Numbered from the stretch's first letter, positions 41,668-47,896 are shown. The stretch: 64,000 nt of DNA from Candidatus Heimdallarchaeota archaeon (GCA_011364965.1 RDOB01000006.1:32001-96000), one strand, 5' to 3'. Notes: generated by a model not told the origin, from the sequence alone. Made by a program: numbers and translations.

Positions 41668-43155
41668 GTGTATAATATTACTGGAGGTATTTTTTTGGTT
41701 ACTAAAACAAAGATTGTATGCACAATTGGACCAGCTTCTGAAGATATAATTACTCTCAAGAAGCTCATTCGTGCAGGAATGGATGTATGTCGGTTAAATT
41801 TTAGTCATGGAAATCACCCTGATCACCTTGAACGATATGAACGAATTCGCTCAGTATCTGATGATGTTGCAATACTTGTGGATCTTTGCGGTCCAAAAAT
41901 TCGTACAGGTGAAGTTAAAGAAGGAACTATTCTGAAATCAGGGCAAAATTATCGGATATCAGCTGAAATTGGACTGGAAGGAGATTCAAATGTATGTTCA
42001 ACTAATTACCCTCCTCTTGTGAATGATTGTGAGGTAGGAAATCATTTAGCGATAGATGATGGTCTTTTACAATTACGAGTGACCAAAAAAGATAATCAAA
42101 CGCAAGAATTGATCTGTAAAGTTTTGCATGGAGGACCTTTGAAATCAAGAAAAGGAATAAATGCTCCAGATGTCCCTCTCTCCCTCTATTTTCCTCTGGA
42201 AAAAGATCTAGAAGATATTAAGTTTGTTATAAAGAAAATGGACATTGATTTTCTTGCTGCTTCATTTGTCAGAAGAAAAGAAGATATTTTAACCGTAAAG
42301 AAAATTTTGGAAGAATCCGATTCTTCTATACAGATTATAGCTAAAATTGAGAACCGAGATGGGATCAAAAATTTTAACGAGATTTTAAAAGTTGCTGATG
42401 GAATAATGGTTGCTCGGGGAGATCTAGGTATAGAAATTCCAAGTGAAAAGGTTCCAATTGTTCAAAAAGAGCTCATTAAAGCCTGTAATATCGCGGGAAA
42501 ACCAGTTATCGTTGCCACTCAAATGCTTGATTCAATGACAAATAATCCACGCCCAACACGCGCTGAAGTATCTGATGTTTCCAATGCAATTATTGATGGA
42601 GCTGATGCAGTTATGCTCTCAGGAGAGACTGCAGTGGGAACATATCCTATAGAAACTGTTAACTATATGGAGAGAATTCTGAAAGAAATCAATCTCAATC
42701 AGCATTTAATACAAAGAGTAACTGCTGATTCATTAAGTGAAACTGAATCCTCAATTTCCGAAACTTTAGGAAGAGCAACTAACCTTATTAGCCAAACAAG
42801 AAAATTAAAGATAAAAGCTATTGTCACTAGTACTCGTACAGGATCAACTTCCAGATTAATTGCTAAATGGCGTCCAGAAAAACCAATTATTGCAGGTACT
42901 CCATATAAATCCGTACAGAGGCAATTGCAACTGAGTTGGGGAGTATATCCAATACAAGTTGATGTCGTACCTTCATTTGATGAATTAGTATATAATATTG
43001 TGAAGAAATCATCAGATGAAGGTCTTTTAGCATCTAAAGACGAAATTATAGTTGTTGGAGGTAGTTTATTGGGTTTCCCAGCAAAAACAAACATGATTCA
43101 AATCATGCAAGTTTATGATGTCCTCCTGTACGGCCAGAAGCTCCAGAGAGTATGA
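41668..43155 (+). CDS. pyk: Pyruvate kinase (probable TTG start at 41695)
   Basis: TKIVCTIGPAS, RLNFSHG, IIAKIEN, MVARGDLG, ATQMLDSM and MLSGETA motifs. Confidence 0.97.
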   Translation: MYNITGGIFLVTKTKIVCTIGPASEDIITLKKLIRAGMDVCRLNFSHGNHPDHLERYERIRSVSDDVAILVDLCGPKIRTGEVKEGTILKSGQNYRISAEIGLEGDSNVCSTNYPPLVNDCEVGNHLAIDDGLLQLRVTKKDNQTQELICKVLHGGPLKSRKGINAPDVPLSLYFPLEKDLEDIKFVIKKMDIDFLAASFVRRKEDILTVKKILEESDSSIQIIAKIENRDGIKNFNEILKVADGIMVARGDLGIEIPSEKVPIVQKELIKACNIAGKPVIVATQMLDSMTNNPRPTRAEVSDVSNAIIDGADAVMLSGETAVGTYPIETVNYMERILKEINLNQHLIQRVTADSLSETESSISETLGRATNLISQTRKLKIKAIVTSTRTGSTSRLIAKWRPEKPIIAGTPYKSVQRQLQLSWGVYPIQVDVVPSFDELVYNIVKKSSDEGLLASKDEIIVVGGSLLGFPAKTNMIQIMQVYDVLLYGQKLQRV

Positions 43156-43182: not shown

Positions 43183-45432
43183 GTGATAATCGTTACTGTT
43201 GCTGACGGATTTCAAGAGGATTACGGACAATCGATTGGGAGGATCGCTGAAAAGCACTTTCAGGAACTCGGGTTAGATATCGGAGAAATAGTGGAATTAA
43301 TAAGTGGTACACAGCGAATTGGAGTCTTTCTACGTGGATTGGAGGAGGTTGAGAACAGTAAAATACTTCAAAGATCCATATATAGGTCAGATGAAGTTTT
43401 CAAGAGAAGATCAGATGAAAAACCGATTATTCTCTATCTCAATGGCTTTCTAAGAGCCAGTTTAAAAATTGGTATAGGACAAAAGGTGAGGTTGGATAAA
43501 ACAAGCCCTCCAGAAGCCGATACAGTCTTAATTGCTCCACTCAATTCCGAAGATAAAGAGAAAGTGTATATAGAATATTTATTGAATCGTCCAGTTATTC
43601 GTGGACAAATCATCGAACTTCAAAATATTGGATACGATCTAAAAGCTGCAATATTAAAAACAAATCCTCCAGGGATAGTGAGGATCTCTGCTACTTCAGA
43701 TGTCAGGATTACAAATGACCCTCCACCCGAATTAGTAAAAAATAACGAAAATTATGTTTCATATGACGATATTGGGGGATTTAGAGAAATTATCCAAAGA
43801 GTACGAACTCTCGTTGAATTTCCTCTACGCTATCCAGAGGTTTTTGAATTGTTGAATATTGATCCGCCAAGAGGAATTTTAATAACTGGACCATCAGGAA
43901 TTGGCAAAACGTACTTAGCAAAAGCTATTTCGTGTGAGTCTGGTGTGACACGTTTTTTTGTTATGGCACCAGAAATTATCAAAGGTTGGTGGACTGCAGA
44001 ACAAGAGATGGATAAATACTTTCAGCATGTCTTAAAATTTGAACCTTCGATCTTAGTAATTGATCAAATTGAGACTCTAGCTCCTACTCCGACTCCCAAT
44101 CTCTCTGATCTTGAAATTAGAATGACGGAAAGATTTATTAGAAATTTAGATGCTTTAAAAGGCAGAAAAGTTGTGGTTATAAGCACTACTAGCAATCCTA
44201 ATGACATCCATCCAGCTTTGCGAGCTTATGGCCGATTCGAGATTGAGATTCCTCTGAAGATCCCAGATTTTAAGGATAGAAGTGAGATTTTAGCGATTCA
44301 AACGAGGGGCCTTCCTTTATCAGCTTCTATTGAGATTCCAACACTTGCTCAAGCGACAAGTGGATTTACTCCTGCAGATTTGGAACTTCTCGTGAAAGAA
44401 GCTGGAATGCATGCTCTGGAAAGAACGAATCTTTTAGATCTTGATACTAAAGTATCATCTACTGCTCAATTAATCAAATCAGAGGTTATAATGGTTGAGC
44501 TAGTCATGGAAGATTTTACTAAAGCATTAGCGACAGTTAAACCTTCAGCTGGTAGAGAAATAATAAATGAAATTCCAAAAGTGAAATGGAGTGACATTGG
44601 AGGATTAAATGATGTAAAACAATCATTGAAAGAAATGATTGAGTGGCCAATAAATCACACACATGTGTTTGAAGAGATGGGAATTCGAATTCCACGAGGT
44701 GTGCTCTTATATGGGCCACCAGGAACTGGAAAAACTCTTATAGCAAAAGCTATGGCAAATGAAATTTCTGCAAATTTTATTGTTGTTAAGGGTCCAGAAT
44801 TATTGTCCAAATGGTTTAGTGAAAGTGCTCGAATGGTACGCGAGCTTTTTAGTCGTGCGCGTGCGTTAGCGCCATGTATCGTGTTTTTTGATGAAATTGA
44901 CGCGATTGCGACTAAGCGTGGAGGAGGATTTTCAAGTTCCACCTCCCGAGAACGAGATAGAGTAATTAATCAACTATTAGCTTCTTTAGATGGAATAGAT
45001 AAGATGAAGGGAGTTTTTGTTGTATGTGCTACAAATAGGCCTAATATGCTAGATCCAGCTTTAATCAGACCTGGAAGATTAGATCGGTTGATATACGTAC
45101 CTGTACCTAATTTTGAAGGGAGAATCCAAATATTAGAAGTTCATACTCGTAATATGCCCCACGATCTGGCAAAAAAAGTCTCTTTGCATGACCTAGCGTC
45201 GAAAACGGATGGTTTTACTGGAGCAGATTTAGAAAATCTGTGTCGAGAGGCTGCTTACTCGTGTTTGAGACGAAATTCTTCACTAATTTCATCAGATGAC
45301 TTCGAAAATTCGTTGAAGATTTGCTCACCTTCCGTGAGTAAAGATCTTGCTAGATTTTATCAAATTCAAGAAGGAATTATGAAAAAGAAAAAATTGATTG
45401 AATATACTAAATACTATCAGGAGTATGCATGA
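43183..45432 (+). CDS. Cdc48/p97-family double AAA ATPase, paralogue A (degenerate D1)
   Basis: Cdc48 N-domain. D1: GPSGIGKT / VIDQIE. D2: GPPGTGKT / FFDEID / RPGRLD. C-terminus ...QEYA. Confidence 0.92.
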   Translation: MIIVTVADGFQEDYGQSIGRIAEKHFQELGLDIGEIVELISGTQRIGVFLRGLEEVENSKILQRSIYRSDEVFKRRSDEKPIILYLNGFLRASLKIGIGQKVRLDKTSPPEADTVLIAPLNSEDKEKVYIEYLLNRPVIRGQIIELQNIGYDLKAAILKTNPPGIVRISATSDVRITNDPPPELVKNNENYVSYDDIGGFREIIQRVRTLVEFPLRYPEVFELLNIDPPRGILITGPSGIGKTYLAKAISCESGVTRFFVMAPEIIKGWWTAEQEMDKYFQHVLKFEPSILVIDQIETLAPTPTPNLSDLEIRMTERFIRNLDALKGRKVVVISTTSNPNDIHPALRAYGRFEIEIPLKIPDFKDRSEILAIQTRGLPLSASIEIPTLAQATSGFTPADLELLVKEAGMHALERTNLLDLDTKVSSTAQLIKSEVIMVELVMEDFTKALATVKPSAGREIINEIPKVKWSDIGGLNDVKQSLKEMIEWPINHTHVFEEMGIRIPRGVLLYGPPGTGKTLIAKAMANEISANFIVVKGPELLSKWFSESARMVRELFSRARALAPCIVFFDEIDAIATKRGGGFSSSTSRERDRVINQLLASLDGIDKMKGVFVVCATNRPNMLDPALIRPGRLDRLIYVPVPNFEGRIQILEVHTRNMPHDLAKKVSLHDLASKTDGFTGADLENLCREAAYSCLRRNSSLISSDDFENSLKICSPSVSKDLARFYQIQEGIMKKKKLIEYTKYYQEYA

Positions 45433-45435
45433 CGA

Positions 45436-47808
45436 ATGGTGTTTTGTGAATTAATTGAACCCTTAGGCGCAGATTTTGGAGAACGAATAATACGACTTCC
45501 ACAAAATATCATCTCTAAACTTGACATAGAGGAAGGAGATATACTAGAAGTAATCTCGAGTGATGGAAAGCGCTTAGGTGTGTTTGCGTATCTAGATCAT
45601 CATTCTGCTGTACTTGATGAGATAAGGGGTATTGAAAAAAGATCCATTCCAGATTCACCGATAATTCCCCAAATTGCATCTCCTGATGATGGTTTACCAA
45701 AGCCAGAGGGAAAGCCATTTGTAGGAATTGAGGGTATTGAACGGGAAGGATTAGCTAAATGTCGTCTTGATGGTGAGGTTCGGTTGTCTCTAGGAGTGAA
45801 AATTGGTGATATAATTGAAGTAGATACCGTTCTGAAACCCGCTTATGCTAAAAAAATTTATTATTGCATTTTGGGTGTAAATCCATCTAGTTTGTCAGAT
45901 GAGGAAAAAGGGCTTATTTCCGATCAATTACGATATCAGATCTCTAAACCTCTCTCTGCGGGCATAATCATAAATATTAATTTCGCTTTTAAGCAGGAGC
46001 AGGTGTTAATCCAATCGTGTGATCCTGATACAATTGTTATTCCTTCCATAAAGACATCTTTCGAATTATTAAATACATTTGTTCCACAGAATAAAGAAGA
46101 GGCTCTCAAAGTCACTTATGAAGATGTGGGTGGTTATAAGGAGGCAATTCACCGATTAAGACACTTAGTTGAGATTCCTATCCTTAAACCCGAGGTTTTT
46201 AAAAAAATAAATCTTGTTCCACCAAGAGGAATTTTAATTGAAGGTTCTACAGGAGTTGGCAAGACTCTTATTCTTAGAGCTCTTGCGAATGAGACTGGTT
46301 GTCGTGTTATTGAAGTTCCTAGCAATTTATTTGCAGGAGTGGGACCTACTGAAAAGAATATTCGCGATCTGTTTGAGAAAGTAAGATCTGAAGCGAGGAA
46401 AAAACCTGTTTTGTTAATCTTAGACAATATGGAGTCATTGACTCCCGCTCCTAATGTTAATCTTCCATTATATATAAAGAGGTTTACCACGCAATTCGCG
46501 TTAGGATTTGATTCTTTACGGGGTACTAATACCATCATCATCGGCGCTTGTCACTCGACAGAAGATATTGACCCTATTTTAAGGAGGCCTGGCCGTTTTG
46601 ACGTTGAGATCGAGATTCCTATTCCATCTGAACTTGAACGACTCGAAATACTCAATATTCATCTTCGTCGAGTCCCTAAATCTAATGAGATTACTAGGGA
46701 GATATTACGTACTTTTGCTCATCGAATGGTTGGTTATGTAGGTGCAGATATCTCTCAATTTGTTAAAGAAGCGTGTATGCGCGCAGTTGGTAGAAATGTT
46801 TCTTTATTCAGTAATTTACCCTCTCAAATTCCAAGATCCATTTTACGTACAATTCAGGTAACCGTTGATGATTTAGAAGAGGCTTATAAGATTACAGAAC
46901 CCTCAGCTTATAGATCGATTCATTCTAAATTAGAAGTCCCAAATGTGACTTTCGATGATATTGGGGGATTAAAAGAAGTCAAACAGTTATTAAAAGAACA
47001 AATAAAATGGCGTTTTGAGGATCCTGATACATTAAAACAGATGGGGGTAAAACCATCAAGTGGACTCCTCCTGTATGGCCCTCCAGGAACCGGGAAAACA
47101 CTACTTGCAAAAGCGTTAGCGACAGAAATGCATGCAAGATTTATTTCAATAAAAGGCCCTGAGTTACTTAGTGTTTGGTTTGGGGAATCAGCAAGGATAA
47201 TTAGACAATTGTTTAAAAGGGCCCAAAAATTAGCTCCATGCATATTATTTTTCGATGAGATTGATGCAATGGTTCCCCGTAGGGGTAGTGATGCCGACAG
47301 TGATGGAGGACAGGAAATAGATGCAACTGTTAATCAATTATTGACTTTATTAGACGGAATGGACAGCTCAAATGATGAAATCTTTATAATTGGAGCAACT
47401 AACCGACCAAATGCTCTAGATACTGCTTTATTACGTCCAGGAAGACTTGATCGCTTGGTTTTAACTCCTCCTCCAGATTTAGAAGGTCGTAAAGAAATAA
47501 TTCGAGTACATACGAAAAAAGTACCTCTTGTTGGAGATCGTGAAGAGATGATCATAGATCTGGCTAAATTGACCGAGGATTTTTCAGGAGCTGACATTGA
47601 GAACTTAGTACGTGAAGCGGTTCTAGCTAGTTTAAGGGAGAACTTTAATCAAAGAGAGGTTTCCTATTCACATTTTCAAACCGCTCTTGCTTTAGTAAGT
47701 CCAAGTATAGATCAAGGAATTATTAAACATTATGAACAATTTGTGAGTGAAGTCTTGGGGAGCCCGAGGAATGTAATATCCTCCCAAAAACCATTTACTT
47801 ATGGTTAG
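45436..47808 (+). CDS. Cdc48/p97-family double AAA ATPase, paralogue B (degenerate D1)
   Basis: Cdc48 N-domain. D1: GSTGVGKT / ILDNME. D2: GPPGTGKT / FFDEID / RPGRLD. C-terminus ...FTYG. Confidence 0.92.
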   Translation: MVFCELIEPLGADFGERIIRLPQNIISKLDIEEGDILEVISSDGKRLGVFAYLDHHSAVLDEIRGIEKRSIPDSPIIPQIASPDDGLPKPEGKPFVGIEGIEREGLAKCRLDGEVRLSLGVKIGDIIEVDTVLKPAYAKKIYYCILGVNPSSLSDEEKGLISDQLRYQISKPLSAGIIININFAFKQEQVLIQSCDPDTIVIPSIKTSFELLNTFVPQNKEEALKVTYEDVGGYKEAIHRLRHLVEIPILKPEVFKKINLVPPRGILIEGSTGVGKTLILRALANETGCRVIEVPSNLFAGVGPTEKNIRDLFEKVRSEARKKPVLLILDNMESLTPAPNVNLPLYIKRFTTQFALGFDSLRGTNTIIIGACHSTEDIDPILRRPGRFDVEIEIPIPSELERLEILNIHLRRVPKSNEITREILRTFAHRMVGYVGADISQFVKEACMRAVGRNVSLFSNLPSQIPRSILRTIQVTVDDLEEAYKITEPSAYRSIHSKLEVPNVTFDDIGGLKEVKQLLKEQIKWRFEDPDTLKQMGVKPSSGLLLYGPPGTGKTLLAKALATEMHARFISIKGPELLSVWFGESARIIRQLFKRAQKLAPCILFFDEIDAMVPRRGSDADSDGGQEIDATVNQLLTLLDGMDSSNDEIFIIGATNRPNALDTALLRPGRLDRLVLTPPPDLEGRKEIIRVHTKKVPLVGDREEMIIDLAKLTEDFSGADIENLVREAVLASLRENFNQREVSYSHFQTALALVSPSIDQGIIKHYEQFVSEVLGSPRNVISSQKPFTYG

Positions 47809-47896
47809 ATATTTCCATCTAAGATAAGAATAAAGGAGGTTTATCTCCTAATATCCTAATTTTATGAAAACCTATCACGAATTGGCGATTAATCTA

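What the first reader, a model, noticed from the sequence alone, without database searches (positions are those of the whole stretch)
43183..47808. Tandem divergent Cdc48 paralogues, both with inactive-looking D1 and intact D2: candidate Pex1/Pex6-like heterohexamer
Seen: two full N-D1-D2 genes 3 nt apart. The D1 Walker B Glu is lost in both (VIDQIE, GAT-CAA at 44062; ILDNME, GAC-AAT at 46423). The D1 sensor-1 Asn is lost (STTSNP; GACHST). The D1 pore loops are altered (KGWWT; FAGVG), and paralogue A has ALRAYGR in place of ALRRPGR. D2 is canonical in both (GPPGTGKT, FFDEID, ATNRP, RPGRLD, W-F pore loop). Both N-domains carry an insertion. Established: canonical Cdc48/VAT is a homohexamer with two active rings, eukaryotic Pex1/Pex6 is a heterohexamer with inactive D1 rings, and AFG2A/AFG2B is also heteromeric. 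Inference: an obligate A/B heterohexameric unfoldase, either a parallel to or a relative of the eukaryotic heteromeric type II AAA machines.
Basis: partly seen in the sequence, partly recalled or inferred. Interest (0 to 1): 0.72.

Follow-up and report, generated by a model that had tools for sequence, protein, structure and literature searches.

The report
Paired half-dead Cdc48 motors, Asgard archaeon
Two back-to-back genes in a Hodarchaeales (Asgard) archaeon encode diverged copies of the protein-unfolding motor Cdc48, each with a switched-off first ATPase ring and a working second ring; they are always inherited as a pair and probably build one mixed ring, a home-grown archaeal parallel to human Pex1/Pex6 rather than its ancestor.

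Summary
Gene A (43183-45432, 749 aa) and gene B (45436-47808, 790 aa) are full N-D1-D2 Cdc48/VAT-type proteins, 37% identical. D1 has lost the Walker B Glu and sensor-1 Asn; D2 is canonical.

- **Host and range:** the host is a Hodarchaeales archaeon. Among 400 Asgard species genomes the pair occurs in 7, all in one genus-level group.
- **Linkage:** wherever the DNA can be read the order is pyruvate kinase-A-B. B's ATG usually abuts A's stop codon.
- **Co-inheritance:** distance matrices of 16 A/B pairs correlate at r = 0.98.
- **Conserved, complementary D1 degeneration:** A keeps an aromatic WW pore loop but lacks one Arg finger. B keeps both Arg fingers but has no aromatic pore loop. Both keep Walker A.
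- **Origin:** trees put A and B as sisters (100/97). Their nearest relative is a third D1-dead, single-copy paralogue ("X") from another Heimdallarchaeia family. The whole clade nests inside archaeal Cdc48.

So this is a lineage-specific duplication, parallel to Pex1/Pex6 and not related to it. Hetero-oligomerisation is inferred, not shown. No eukaryotic sequences could be put in the tree.

The scan reached the same reading earlier on another genome (e1-5695578). I class it as a new variant of a known kind.

The parts
41668..43155 (+). Pyruvate kinase gene, the conserved upstream neighbour. It is probably the first gene of a PK-A-B transcription unit. The true start may lie a few codons downstream of the listed GTG.
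   Evidence: Pfam PK and PK_C domains. PK lies directly upstream of A in G015 and in L069-L073, at 65-75% identity. Only 27 nt separate the PK stop from the A start, and they contain GAGG 9 nt before the GTG. A TATA-like ATAAATA and a GGAGG lie upstream of PK.
43183..45432 (+). Gene A: a Cdc48/VAT-type N-D1-D2 AAA+ protein of 749 aa. D1 should bind nucleotide but not hydrolyse it; D2 is canonical.
   Evidence: (TIGR01243 661 bits against a cut-off of 802.65).
43339..43428 (+). A's N-domain insertion, about residues 53-82: roughly 20 extra residues in a loop of the double-psi barrel.
   Evidence: Alignment counts (40 residues against 20 in canonical proteins). Model pLDDT is 61-72 here.
43888..43911 (+). 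A D1 Walker A, GPSGIGKT, intact.
   Evidence: The pattern GxxGxGK[TS] holds in 31 of 31 A-type sequences.
43981..43995 (+). A D1 pore loop 1, KGWWT. The aromatic pair is retained.
   Evidence: K[GD]WW or RGYW in 31 of 31 A-type sequences, against KFYGES or KYYGES in canonical proteins.
44056..44073 (+). A D1 Walker B, VIDQIE. The catalytic Glu is replaced by Gln.
   Evidence: D-Q in 29 of 31 A-type sequences, D-H in one (P0017) and D-E in one (P0019).
44182..44235 (+). A D1 sensor-1 (STTSNP, Asn lost) and Arg-finger region (ALRAYGR). The residue equivalent to the second R of the canonical RR is lost; the R of the GRF motif is kept.
44713..45084 (+). A D2 catalytic core: Walker A GPPGTGKT, pore loop KWFSES, Walker B FFDEID, sensor-1 ATNRP, Arg fingers RPGRLD.
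   Evidence: Aligns to VAT D2 at 325 bits.
45421..45438 (+). The A/B junction: the last codons of A (..GAG TAT GCA), TGA, CGA, then the ATG of B. A GGAG lies inside A's last codons.
   Evidence: In 8 other locus records the junction is TAA or TGA followed directly by ATG. G015 has a TAATG overlap. G016 and G001 have a 17-nt spacer containing a G-rich element.
45436..47808 (+). Gene B: a Cdc48/VAT-type N-D1-D2 AAA+ protein of 790 aa. D1 should bind nucleotide but not hydrolyse it; D2 is canonical.
   Evidence: (TIGR01243 571 bits).
45598..45750 (+). B's N-domain insertion, about residues 55-105. It is a variable acidic/Ser/Lys-rich stretch followed by the conserved motif [DE]xLPxPxGxx[FY]xG (DGLPKPEGKPFVG in this genome), and is predicted to be disordered.
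   Evidence: 66 residues against 20 in canonical proteins; the motif is seen in the listed B-type sequences, diverged in the basal P0138. pLDDT is below 50 for residues 63-99.
46243..46266 (+). B D1 Walker A, GSTGVGKT, intact.
   Evidence: 20 of 20 B-type sequences.
46330..46344 (+). B D1 pore loop, FAGVG. There is no aromatic residue at the canonical positions, and a 2-residue deletion lies just upstream.
46417..46602 (+). B D1 Walker B (ILDNME, Glu lost), sensor-1 (GACHST, Asn replaced by His) and intact Arg fingers (LRRPGRFD).
   Evidence: Walker B reads DN, DD, EN or NN across the 20 B-type sequences. RR is kept in 19 of 20 (KR in P0138).
47077..47451 (+). B D2 catalytic core: GPPGTGKT, VWFGES, FFDEID, ATNRP, RPGRLD.
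45424..45429 (+). A's C-terminal -Y-A tail. The penultimate residue is aromatic, as in an HbYX motif.
   Evidence: The penultimate residue is Y or F in 31 of 31 A-type sequences. The -3 residue is mostly Glu, which lies outside the pattern [LVIMGAPFYW][FY]x of PMC3493965.
47800..47805 (+). B's C-terminal -Y-G tail. The penultimate residue is aromatic.
   Evidence: Y or F in 20 of 20 B-type sequences; the -3 residue is mostly Thr or Ser.
47834..47870 (+). Short GGAG/CTCC hairpin followed by a T-rich stretch downstream of B. It may be the transcript end.
   Evidence: Read directly from the sequence. Not tested.

Best explanation
A and B are the two subunits of one double-ring AAA+ protein unfoldase.

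**Origin.** It arose inside Heimdallarchaeia by duplication of a Cdc48/VAT paralogue whose D1 ring had already lost ATP hydrolysis.

**Expression.** The genes are transcribed together, probably with the upstream pyruvate kinase gene. They are translated by termination-reinitiation coupling, which favours equal amounts of the two proteins.

**Assembly.** The proteins assemble into a mixed ring, most simply an alternating A3B3 hexamer.

**Work.** The D1 tier binds ATP through intact Walker A motifs but cannot hydrolyse it. It therefore serves as a structural, nucleotide-glued ring. B supplies complete Arg fingers to A's nucleotide pocket. A supplies the only aromatic (WW) pore loops of that tier. 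The canonical D2 tier of both subunits hydrolyses ATP and pulls the substrate through the pore with W-F pore loops.

**Substrate choice and fate.** The two different N-domains each carry an insertion in the same loop. B's holds a conserved LPxPxGxxFxG motif in a disordered stretch. These presumably select substrates or adaptors. The conserved penultimate Tyr/Phe tails suggest hand-over to the 20S proteasome.

**Shown here:** gene anatomy, motif states and their conservation, synteny, co-inheritance, sister relationship, and fold.

**Inferred:** co-assembly, stoichiometry, D1 nucleotide binding without hydrolysis, proteasome docking, and the kind of substrate.
For: **Linkage**
- A-type N-D1 orthologues occur in only 7 of 400 Asgard species genomes. 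A B-type gene lies directly downstream in each.
- Five further loci (three metagenome contigs and two named-genome records that duplicate G019 and G021) show the same PK-A-B order.
- A further 8 A/B protein pairs are tied by identical longest-contig lengths. These include the most divergent tier, about 50% identity for A and 43% for B.

**Coupling**
- B's ATG abuts A's stop codon in 8 locus records, with 3 nt between them here and a 1-nt overlap in G015. A GGAG lies inside A's last codons.

**Co-diversification**
- Pairwise distances of A and of B correlate at r = 0.98 over 16 pairs. None of 5000 Mantel permutations reached this value, and the slope is 0.96.

**Complementary and conserved D1 states**
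- A: Walker A intact and WW pore loop in 31 of 31; Walker B Glu lost in 30 of 31; second Arg finger lost in 31 of 31.
- B: Walker A intact in 20 of 20; no aromatic pore loop; Walker B Glu lost in 20 of 20; RR fingers kept in 19 of 20.
- D1 remains under constraint within each type: 61% (A) and 67% (B) mean identity, against 38-39% to canonical D1.
- D2 is canonical in every sequence.

**Origin**
- Careful ML tree (LG+C20+F+G4, D1+D2, 47 rows): A 100/100, B 100/100, A+B 100/97, A+B+X 100/99.
- The D2-only tree gives the same topology.
- X also lacks the Walker B Glu (DN or DD). D1 inactivation therefore most parsimoniously predates the duplication.

**Fold and context**
- Both models match full-length p97.
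- The genome encodes 20S proteasome subunits.
Against: - No direct evidence of physical interaction. Operon partners can also be separate homohexamers.
- D2, the main driver of function, is canonical in both and compatible with homomers.
- X shows that a D1-dead Cdc48 of this clade exists as a single gene, so D1 inactivity does not in itself require a partner.
- p97 D1 also lacks aromatic pore loops (SKLAGES in CDC48A). A B-only ring is therefore not obviously defective.
- The pair is dispensable: 15 of 22 species of the same genus-level group lack it, several of them at 95-99% completeness.
- The tails deviate from the published HbYX pattern at the -3 position.
- The r = 0.98 correlation is what any two co-inherited genes would give.
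Confidence: 0.6

Rival explanations
1. A and B form two separate homohexamers. They would be sister unfoldases with different N-domains, and so different clients, that are merely co-expressed from one operon.
For: - Archaeal genomes commonly hold several independent Cdc48 paralogues. This genome has three canonical ones besides A and B.
- The singleton X shows that a D1-dead member of this clade can exist alone.
- D2 of both proteins has every motif needed for a self-sufficient ring.
- The N-domains are only 23% identical, as expected if each recognises different substrates.
Against: - Independent paralogues elsewhere in this genome are scattered, not abutting.
- Strict adjacency with a stop/start junction is kept over about 50% sequence divergence.
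- No locus was found with only one of the two.
- The losses are complementary, not parallel: an Arg finger in A only, the aromatic D1 pore loop in B only. That is more easily explained if the two share one ring.
Confidence: 0.27
2. The pair is a relative or forerunner of a eukaryotic heteromeric type II AAA machine (Pex1/Pex6 or AFG2A/AFG2B). On this view the heteromeric state was inherited by eukaryotes from a Hodarchaeales-like ancestor.
For: - The host belongs to Hodarchaeales, according to the source names.
- The design, with D1 inactive and D2 active, matches Pex1/Pex6.
- D2 of A and B shares several residues with eukaryotic Cdc48 that VAT and X lack: the W-F pore loop, APC before Walker B, and RPGRLD.LIY.
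Against: - A and B are sisters to each other, not to different outgroups. They nest with the Heimdallarchaeia-only X inside archaeal Cdc48.
- The pair is confined to 7 of 400 Asgard species genomes.
- By sequence score the order is VAT, then p97, AFG2A, Afg2, NVL and AFG2B. Pex1 and Pex6 are absent from the best 60.
- Both proteins keep the D1 Walker A and have a single N-domain of about 190-225 residues. From my own knowledge, not tested here, Pex1 and Pex6 have doubled N-domains and Pex1 has a degenerate D1 Walker A.
- X lacks the p97-like D2 residues, so these arose after the split from X. That suggests convergence.
- Kienle et al. 2016 found that all archaeal sequences lie apart from the eukaryotic family members.
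Confidence: 0.03
3. A functional variant that is compatible with either assembly state: the motor does not feed the proteasome. Instead it works as a segregase, for instance taking apart the Heimdallarchaeal SNARE-like bundles for which no disassembly ATPase is known.
For: - A 2026 preprint reports that Heimdallarchaeal SNARE complexes resist mouse NSF. It proposes an archaeal Cdc48-like ATPase as the missing factor, untested.
- The A and B tails do not fit the strict HbYX pattern.
Against: - No SNARE-like or membrane-traffic gene lies near the pair. The neighbours are metabolic or transport genes.
- The pair is missing from most Heimdallarchaeia.
- The penultimate aromatic residue is kept in 51 of 51 sequences, which points to proteasome docking.
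- NSF has the opposite polarity, with D1 active and D2 inactive (my own knowledge).
Confidence: 0.05

Closest known systems
Archaeal Cdc48/VAT (Thermoplasma VAT, PDB 5g4g; NCBIfam TIGR01243)
   Same: - The N-D1-D2 architecture is the same.
- VAT is the best solved relative by sequence: 563 bits for A and 583 bits for B.
- A and B nest among archaeal Cdc48 in the tree.
- D2 motifs and the penultimate aromatic tail are shared.
   Different: - VAT is a homohexamer with two active rings and YY pore loops in D1.
- A and B come as a coupled gene pair, D1 has lost Walker B Glu and sensor-1, and the N-domain carries an insertion.
- A and B fall below the TIGR01243 cut-off at 661 and 571 bits, against 1034 and 1076 for this genome's canonical paralogues.
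Eukaryotic Pex1/Pex6 heterohexamer
   Same: - It works in the way proposed here.
- Two paralogous type II AAA+ subunits.
- A D1 tier that does not hydrolyse ATP and a D2 tier that drives threading (PMC5762779 and PMC4490564, abstracts).
   Different: - No specific sequence kinship was found.
- The duplication is independent.
- Both A and B keep the D1 Walker A.
- A and B have single rather than doubled N-domains.
- There is no peroxisome or membrane-anchor context.
- A and B carry a proteasome-type tail.
AFG2A/AFG2B (SPATA5/SPATA5L1) of the human 55LCC complex
   Same: Heteromeric ring of two Cdc48-family paralogues. AFG2A is the next best eukaryotic match after p97/Cdc48: 477 bits for A and 432 bits for B.
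   Different: It scores lower than VAT and p97, so there is no specific relationship. It is a eukaryotic ribosome-maturation and replisome factor with extra non-ATPase subunits, and none of that context is present here.
Paralogue X: a single-copy D1-dead Cdc48 of another Heimdallarchaeia family (L067 4156-6525; L068 4020-6326)
   Same: - Sister to A+B (100/99).
- Walker B Glu lost (DN or DD).
- No aromatic D1 pore loop.
- An insertion in the same N-domain loop.
- D2 canonical, with a penultimate Phe tail.
   Different: - A single gene with no adjacent partner.
- It keeps the ancestral KWVGES and RPGRFD in D2.
- It has a further large insertion in the second N subdomain.
- It was found in 5 of 12 genomes of family f5 and never together with A and B.
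Archaeal proteasomal AAA network: PAN, Cdc48 and AMA with HbYX tails (Forouzan et al. 2012, PMC3493965)
   Same: A penultimate Tyr/Phe at the very C-terminus. The genome also has 20S subunits, PAN and further Cdc48 paralogues.
   Different: The -3 residue is Glu in A and Thr or Ser in B. The published pattern asks for a hydrophobic or small residue there. Docking is therefore plausible but unproven.

Membership tests
Cdc48/VAT/p97 family (type II AAA+) | An N-domain (double-psi barrel plus beta-barrel) followed by two AAA modules, each with a lid. | tested here: met
   Pfam finds two PF00004 and two PF17862 domains, with weak CDC48_N or CDC48_2 matches. The AF2 models align to full-length p97/CDC48A over about 760-800 columns at TM 0.73-0.80 and E about 1e-69.
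Cdc48/VAT/p97 family (type II AAA+) | Score above the curated cut-off of NCBIfam TIGR01243 (802.65 bits). | tested here: not met
   A scores 661.2 bits and B 570.8 bits. X scores 736 and 653. The control paralogues of the same genome score 1034 and 1076. A and B are divergent members, not typical ones.
Cdc48/VAT/p97 family (type II AAA+) | Phylogenetic placement within the family. | tested here: met
   The A+B+X clade nests among archaeal Cdc48 sequences in the D2, D1 and D1+D2 trees. No eukaryotic members were included.
Cdc48/VAT/p97 family (type II AAA+) | Both rings catalytically competent: Walker B DE, sensor-1 Asn and Arg fingers in D1 and in D2. | tested here: not met
   D1 of A reads DQ, with sensor-1 S/T/I/Q and one Arg finger lost. 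D1 of B reads DN or DD, with sensor-1 H or K. D2 is complete in both.
Cdc48/VAT/p97 family (type II AAA+) | Homohexameric assembly. | not testable with these tools
   Only single-chain prediction was available. The genetic evidence points to a mixed ring.
Pex1/Pex6 | Two distinct paralogous subunits with an inactive D1 tier and an active D2 tier. | tested here: met
   Met at the level of gene pair and motifs only. Assembly was not tested.
Pex1/Pex6 | Specific sequence or phylogenetic kinship to Pex1 or Pex6. | tested here: not met
   Pex1 and Pex6 are absent from the best 60 PDB matches of A, of B and of their D2 domains. A and B are sisters of each other. A tree with eukaryotic sequences could not be built.
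Pex1/Pex6 | Doubled N-terminal domains (N1+N2) and a degenerate D1 Walker A in Pex1. This feature list rests on my own knowledge. | tested here: not met
   There is one N-domain, about 190 aa in A and about 225 aa in B. The D1 Walker A is intact in 51 of 51 sequences.
AFG2A/AFG2B (55LCC) | Specific sequence kinship. | tested here: not met
   AFG2A scores 477 and 432 bits, and AFG2B 373 and 349 bits. All are below VAT and p97.
NSF | D1 active and D2 inactive and structural (my own knowledge). | tested here: not met
   The polarity is the opposite here: D1 degenerate and D2 canonical.
HbYX-tailed proteasomal ATPases | C-terminus matching [LVIMGAPFYW][FY]x, as defined in PMC3493965. | tested here: inconclusive
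   The penultimate residue is Y or F in 31 of 31 A-type and 20 of 20 B-type sequences. The -3 residue is mostly E in A and T or S in B. In this genome the tails are EYA and TYG.

The most novel reading that the evidence does not exclude
The D1-dead clade (X, A, B) of Heimdallarchaeia is not just a parallel. Either it is the surviving archaeal kin of the lineage that gave eukaryotes a D1-inactive heteromeric motor such as Pex1/Pex6. Or A/B is the missing disassembly ATPase for the SNARE-like complexes of Heimdallarchaeia. Either way, a homomer-to-heteromer step usually thought of as eukaryotic would already be present in the archaeal order placed closest to eukaryotes.
Probability: 0.05. Interest if true: 0.9.

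Novelty: new variant of a known kind. Interest (0 to 1): 0.55.

Why it matters
Going from rings of one subunit to rings of several paralogous subunits is a hallmark of eukaryotic molecular machines. Examples are Rpt1-6 replacing PAN, Pex1/Pex6, AFG2A/B and the four SNARE classes. Archaeal Cdc48/VAT has been treated as homomeric, with two live rings.

This pair suggests that the same step took place independently inside Hodarchaeales. A D1-dead homomer, the state still seen in paralogue X, appears to have duplicated. The two copies then lost complementary features.

If co-assembly is confirmed, this would be a small, tractable prokaryotic model for three questions: how obligate hetero-oligomers arise, how an ATP-binding but non-hydrolysing ring supports a working ring, and which clients need such a motor. 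It would also add a member to the set of AAA+ ATPases that may serve the archaeal proteasome.

It does not bear on the origin of peroxisomes.

Tried and rejected
1. **An apparent counter-example that turned out to be an artefact.** In G015, A seemed to be followed only by the first 202 codons of B, with no D1/D2 remnant. I first read this as evidence against an obligate heteromer. Translating the fragment exposed a run of exactly 100 N directly after codon 202 (L066 6701-6800), with a second 100-N run nearby. The 'single contig' is a gapped scaffold and the rest of B lies in the gap. The reading was withdrawn.
2. **Stop-codon read-through making an A-B fusion.** A and B are in the same frame in most loci. 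They are not in frame in G015 (1-nt overlap) or in G016 and G001 (17-nt spacer). The idea was rejected.
3. **A phylogeny with eukaryotic Pex1, Pex6, AFG2, NVL, NSF and p97.** No tool returned those sequences in usable form. Only PDB score ranks and one printed alignment were available.
The neighbours of the divergent A-type proteins P0017-P0027 could not be read. I used equal longest-contig lengths as a proxy and checked it with the distance correlation.
5. **ESM Atlas look-ups** on the N-D1 parts returned only generic Cdc48/AAA clusters from all domains of life.
6. **Multimer modelling** (A3B3 against A6 or B6) was not possible, because only single chains can be folded.
8. **Literature searches** found no description of this pair. 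The library is incomplete.

Full report
**1. What is there**

The window holds two same-strand ORFs. A runs from 43183 to 45432 (GTG start, 749 aa) and B from 45436 to 47808 (ATG start, 790 aa). They are 37% identical over their full length. Each has two Pfam AAA domains, two AAA lids and weak Cdc48 N-domain matches.

NCBIfam's CDC48 model TIGR01243 is the best hit for both, but below its cut-off of 802.65 bits. A scores 661 and B 571. Two ordinary Cdc48 paralogues of the same genome score 1034 and 1076.

AlphaFold2 models built on a 75-sequence alignment are confident: pLDDT 86.7 for A and 84.3 for B. They superpose on full-length p97 and Arabidopsis CDC48A at TM 0.73-0.80.

**2. Organism and genomic setting**

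Source names of the closest database proteins put the window in Hodarchaeales (Heimdallarchaeia, Asgard).

The assembly is 2.97 Mb and 87% complete. It also encodes three canonical Cdc48 paralogues, PAN and Vps4-like ATPases, and 20S proteasome subunits.

The neighbours of the pair are metabolic or transport genes:
- CoA-transferase subunits and pyruvate kinase upstream;
- an ABC permease on the other strand downstream.

Only 27 nt, containing a GAGG, separate the PK stop from A's start. A TATA-like element and a GGAGG precede PK. A short hairpin with a T-rich tract follows B. PK-A-B is therefore probably one transcript. This is inferred.

**3. Conservation and linkage**

I searched 400 Asgard species genomes with A's N-D1 part. 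It gave orthologue-grade hits (E at most 1e-151, 56-65% identity) in 7 genomes, all in one genus-level group. Every other genome stopped at about 1e-70, the level of generic Cdc48.

B's N-D1 part found orthologues in 6 of those 7 genomes, always directly downstream of A.

The seventh genome, G015, at first looked like a truncated B. It is in fact a scaffold gap. A run of exactly 100 N begins right after B's codon 202. The readable B fragment is 85% identical to a full-length B from a close relative.

Five more loci all read PK-A-B: three metagenome contigs and two named-genome records that duplicate G019 and G021.

In the protein collection there are 25 A-type and about 22 B-type clusters. Equal longest-contig lengths tie 11 of them into pairs, three of which coincide with loci read directly, leaving 8 further pairs. 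These include a divergent tier at about 50% identity for A and 43% for B.

Over 16 pairs the A and B distance matrices correlate at r = 0.98 (0 of 5000 permutations reached this; slope 0.96). That confirms the pairing and shows that the two genes have been inherited together at similar rates. It does not by itself show physical interaction.

I found no readable locus with one gene but not the other.

The pair is also dispensable. Fifteen of 22 species in the same group lack it, several of them at 95-99% completeness.

**4. The junction**

B's ATG directly follows A's stop codon (TAA or TGA, then ATG) in eight locus records. The other cases are:
- this genome: a spacer of one codon;
- G015: a TAATG overlap;
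- G016 and G001: a 17-nt spacer with a G-rich element.

A GGAG lies within A's last codons. This is the usual signature of translational coupling, which favours equimolar synthesis. Because the frame is not conserved, a read-through fusion is not the explanation.

**5. Motif states across the family**

| Feature | A-type (31 sequences) | B-type (20 sequences) | Canonical Cdc48 |
|---|---|---|---|
| D1 Walker A | intact in all | intact in all | intact |
| D1 pore loop | K[GD]WW or RGYW in all | LFAG[VI]GP or similar, no aromatic at the canonical positions, with a 2-residue deletion | KFYGES or KYYGES |
| D1 Walker B | D-Q in 29, D-H in one, D-E in one basal sequence | DN, DD, EN or NN | D-E |
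| D1 sensor-1 | Asn lost | Asn replaced by H, K or Q in most; retained in two basal sequences | Asn |
| D1 Arg fingers | second R of the RR pair lost in all; R of GRF kept | RRPGRFD kept in 19 of 20 | RRPGRFD |
| D2 | canonical in every sequence | canonical in every sequence | canonical |

The degeneration is therefore old, conserved and complementary. A contributes the only aromatic D1 pore loops. B contributes the only complete D1 Arg fingers.

D1 is not decaying. Within each type it is 61-67% identical, while it is only 38-39% identical to canonical D1. Canonical D1 domains are 71% identical among themselves.

An intact Walker A combined with a lost catalytic Glu is the classic ATP-bound, non-hydrolysing state. 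I infer a structural, nucleotide-glued D1 tier.

**6. N-domains and tails**

Both proteins have an insertion in the same loop of the first N subdomain. The loop has 20 residues in canonical proteins, 33 in X, 40 in A and 57-76 in B.

B's insertion is predicted to be disordered (pLDDT below 50). It ends in a conserved [DE]xLPxPxGxx[FY]xG motif, which looks like a docking motif. Its partner is unknown.

All 51 sequences end in aromatic-X. Forouzan et al. define the proteasome-docking HbYX tail as [LVIMGAPFYW][FY]x. A's usual Glu and B's Thr or Ser at the -3 position fall outside that set. Proteasome docking is therefore plausible but open.

**7. Origin**

Three trees give the same picture.
- **D2-only ML tree:** A (95) and B (100) are sister clades (98), with X next (84).
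- **D1-only tree:** same topology, with long stems.
- **Careful tree of D1+D2** (533 columns, LG+C20+F+G4 PMSF, ultrafast bootstrap/SH-aLRT): A 100/100, B 100/100, X 100/99, A+B 100/97, A+B+X 100/99, nested among archaeal Cdc48.

X is a single gene without a partner next to it. It occurs in 5 of 12 genomes of a different Heimdallarchaeia family and never alongside A and B.

X also lacks the D1 Walker B Glu and an aromatic D1 pore loop. The most parsimonious history has three steps:
1. D1 was inactivated in a homomeric ancestor.
2. That gene duplicated in the Hodarchaeales line.
3. The two copies then lost complementary features.

Long-branch effects on D1 are a caveat. The D2-only tree agrees.

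**8. Relation to eukaryotic machines**

By sequence against the PDB, VAT is best for both proteins and for their D2 domains alone. It is followed by p97/Cdc48, AFG2A, yeast Afg2, NVL, AFG2B and Rix7. Pex1 and Pex6 do not reach the best 60.

Kienle et al. 2016 found all archaeal sequences apart from the eukaryotic family members.

D2 of A and B does share some residues with eukaryotic Cdc48 that VAT and X lack: the W-F pore loop, APC before Walker B, and RPGRLD.LIY. Because X has the ancestral states, these arose after the split from X. I read them as convergence.

I could not obtain eukaryotic sequences for a joint tree. 'Parallel, not relative' therefore rests on the A/B sister relationship, the narrow distribution and the score ranks.

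**9. Verdict**

The heteromer reading is the best-supported explanation (about 0.6) but remains inference. The main rival is two co-expressed homohexamers (about 0.27). Kinship to Pex1/Pex6 or AFG2A/B is unlikely (about 0.03).

No paper in the searchable library describes the pair. An earlier follow-up of this scan on another genome (e1-5695578) reached the same reading.

- the singleton sister X;
- the inference that D1 died before the duplication;
- the complementary Arg-finger and pore-loop pattern;
- the conserved PK linkage;
- the exposure of an assembly-gap artefact that mimicked loss of B.

Noticed in passing
L067 4156-6525 (+); L068 4020-6326 (-); L152-L156: A third D1-dead Cdc48 paralogue, 'X' (766-796 aa). 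Its Walker B reads DN or DD and it has no aromatic D1 pore loop. It also has a large extra insertion in the second N subdomain. It is single-copy and confined to 5 of 12 genomes of another Heimdallarchaeia family. It is sister to A+B.
   Followed up: partly
window 44809-44826 and 45067-45084 (A); 47173-47190 and 47434-47451 (B): D2 of A and B has a W-F pore loop, APC before Walker B, and RPGRLD.LIY, as in plant CDC48A. VAT, X and other archaeal Cdc48 have KWVGES and RPGRFD or RAGRFD. This is probably convergence, but a tree with eukaryotes would be worth building.
   Followed up: partly
window 41668-43155: Pyruvate kinase is the conserved upstream neighbour of the pair in every locus read, and is probably co-transcribed with it. 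No functional link to an unfoldase is apparent.
   Followed up: partly
L066 6701-6800 and 13640-13739 (G015:C1): Runs of exactly 100 N in a genome listed as a single 3.16-Mb contig. It is a gapped scaffold, and genes next to such runs look truncated.
   Followed up: yes
G008:C9:113311-114192, G003:C36:55332-56219, G018:C112:13085-14173: Cdc48-like matches that lie in open frames of 1209-1241 aa in related Hodarchaeales genomes. They may be Cdc48 proteins with large extra domains or fusions.
   Followed up: no
protein P0019 (A-type, 751 aa) and proteins P0134, P0136 (B-type): Basal members keep ancestral D1 residues. P0019 has Walker B D-E, and P0134 and P0136 keep the sensor-1 Asn. D1 decay therefore went on stepwise after the duplication, or was reversed in these lines.
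   Followed up: no
protein P0135 (B-type, on a 229-kb contig): One source labels it 'Candidatus Thorarchaeota archaeon', yet every D1/D2 motif and the C-terminal tail tabulated match the B of G001. This is likely a binning or taxonomic label problem, not a Thorarchaeial copy.
   Followed up: no
G000:C13:125520-127130 (L005), paralogue C3: One of the three canonical Cdc48 paralogues of this genome ends in ..ITRK, without a penultimate aromatic residue, and sits on a long branch in the D2 tree. It is probably a Cdc48 that does not serve the proteasome.
   Followed up: no
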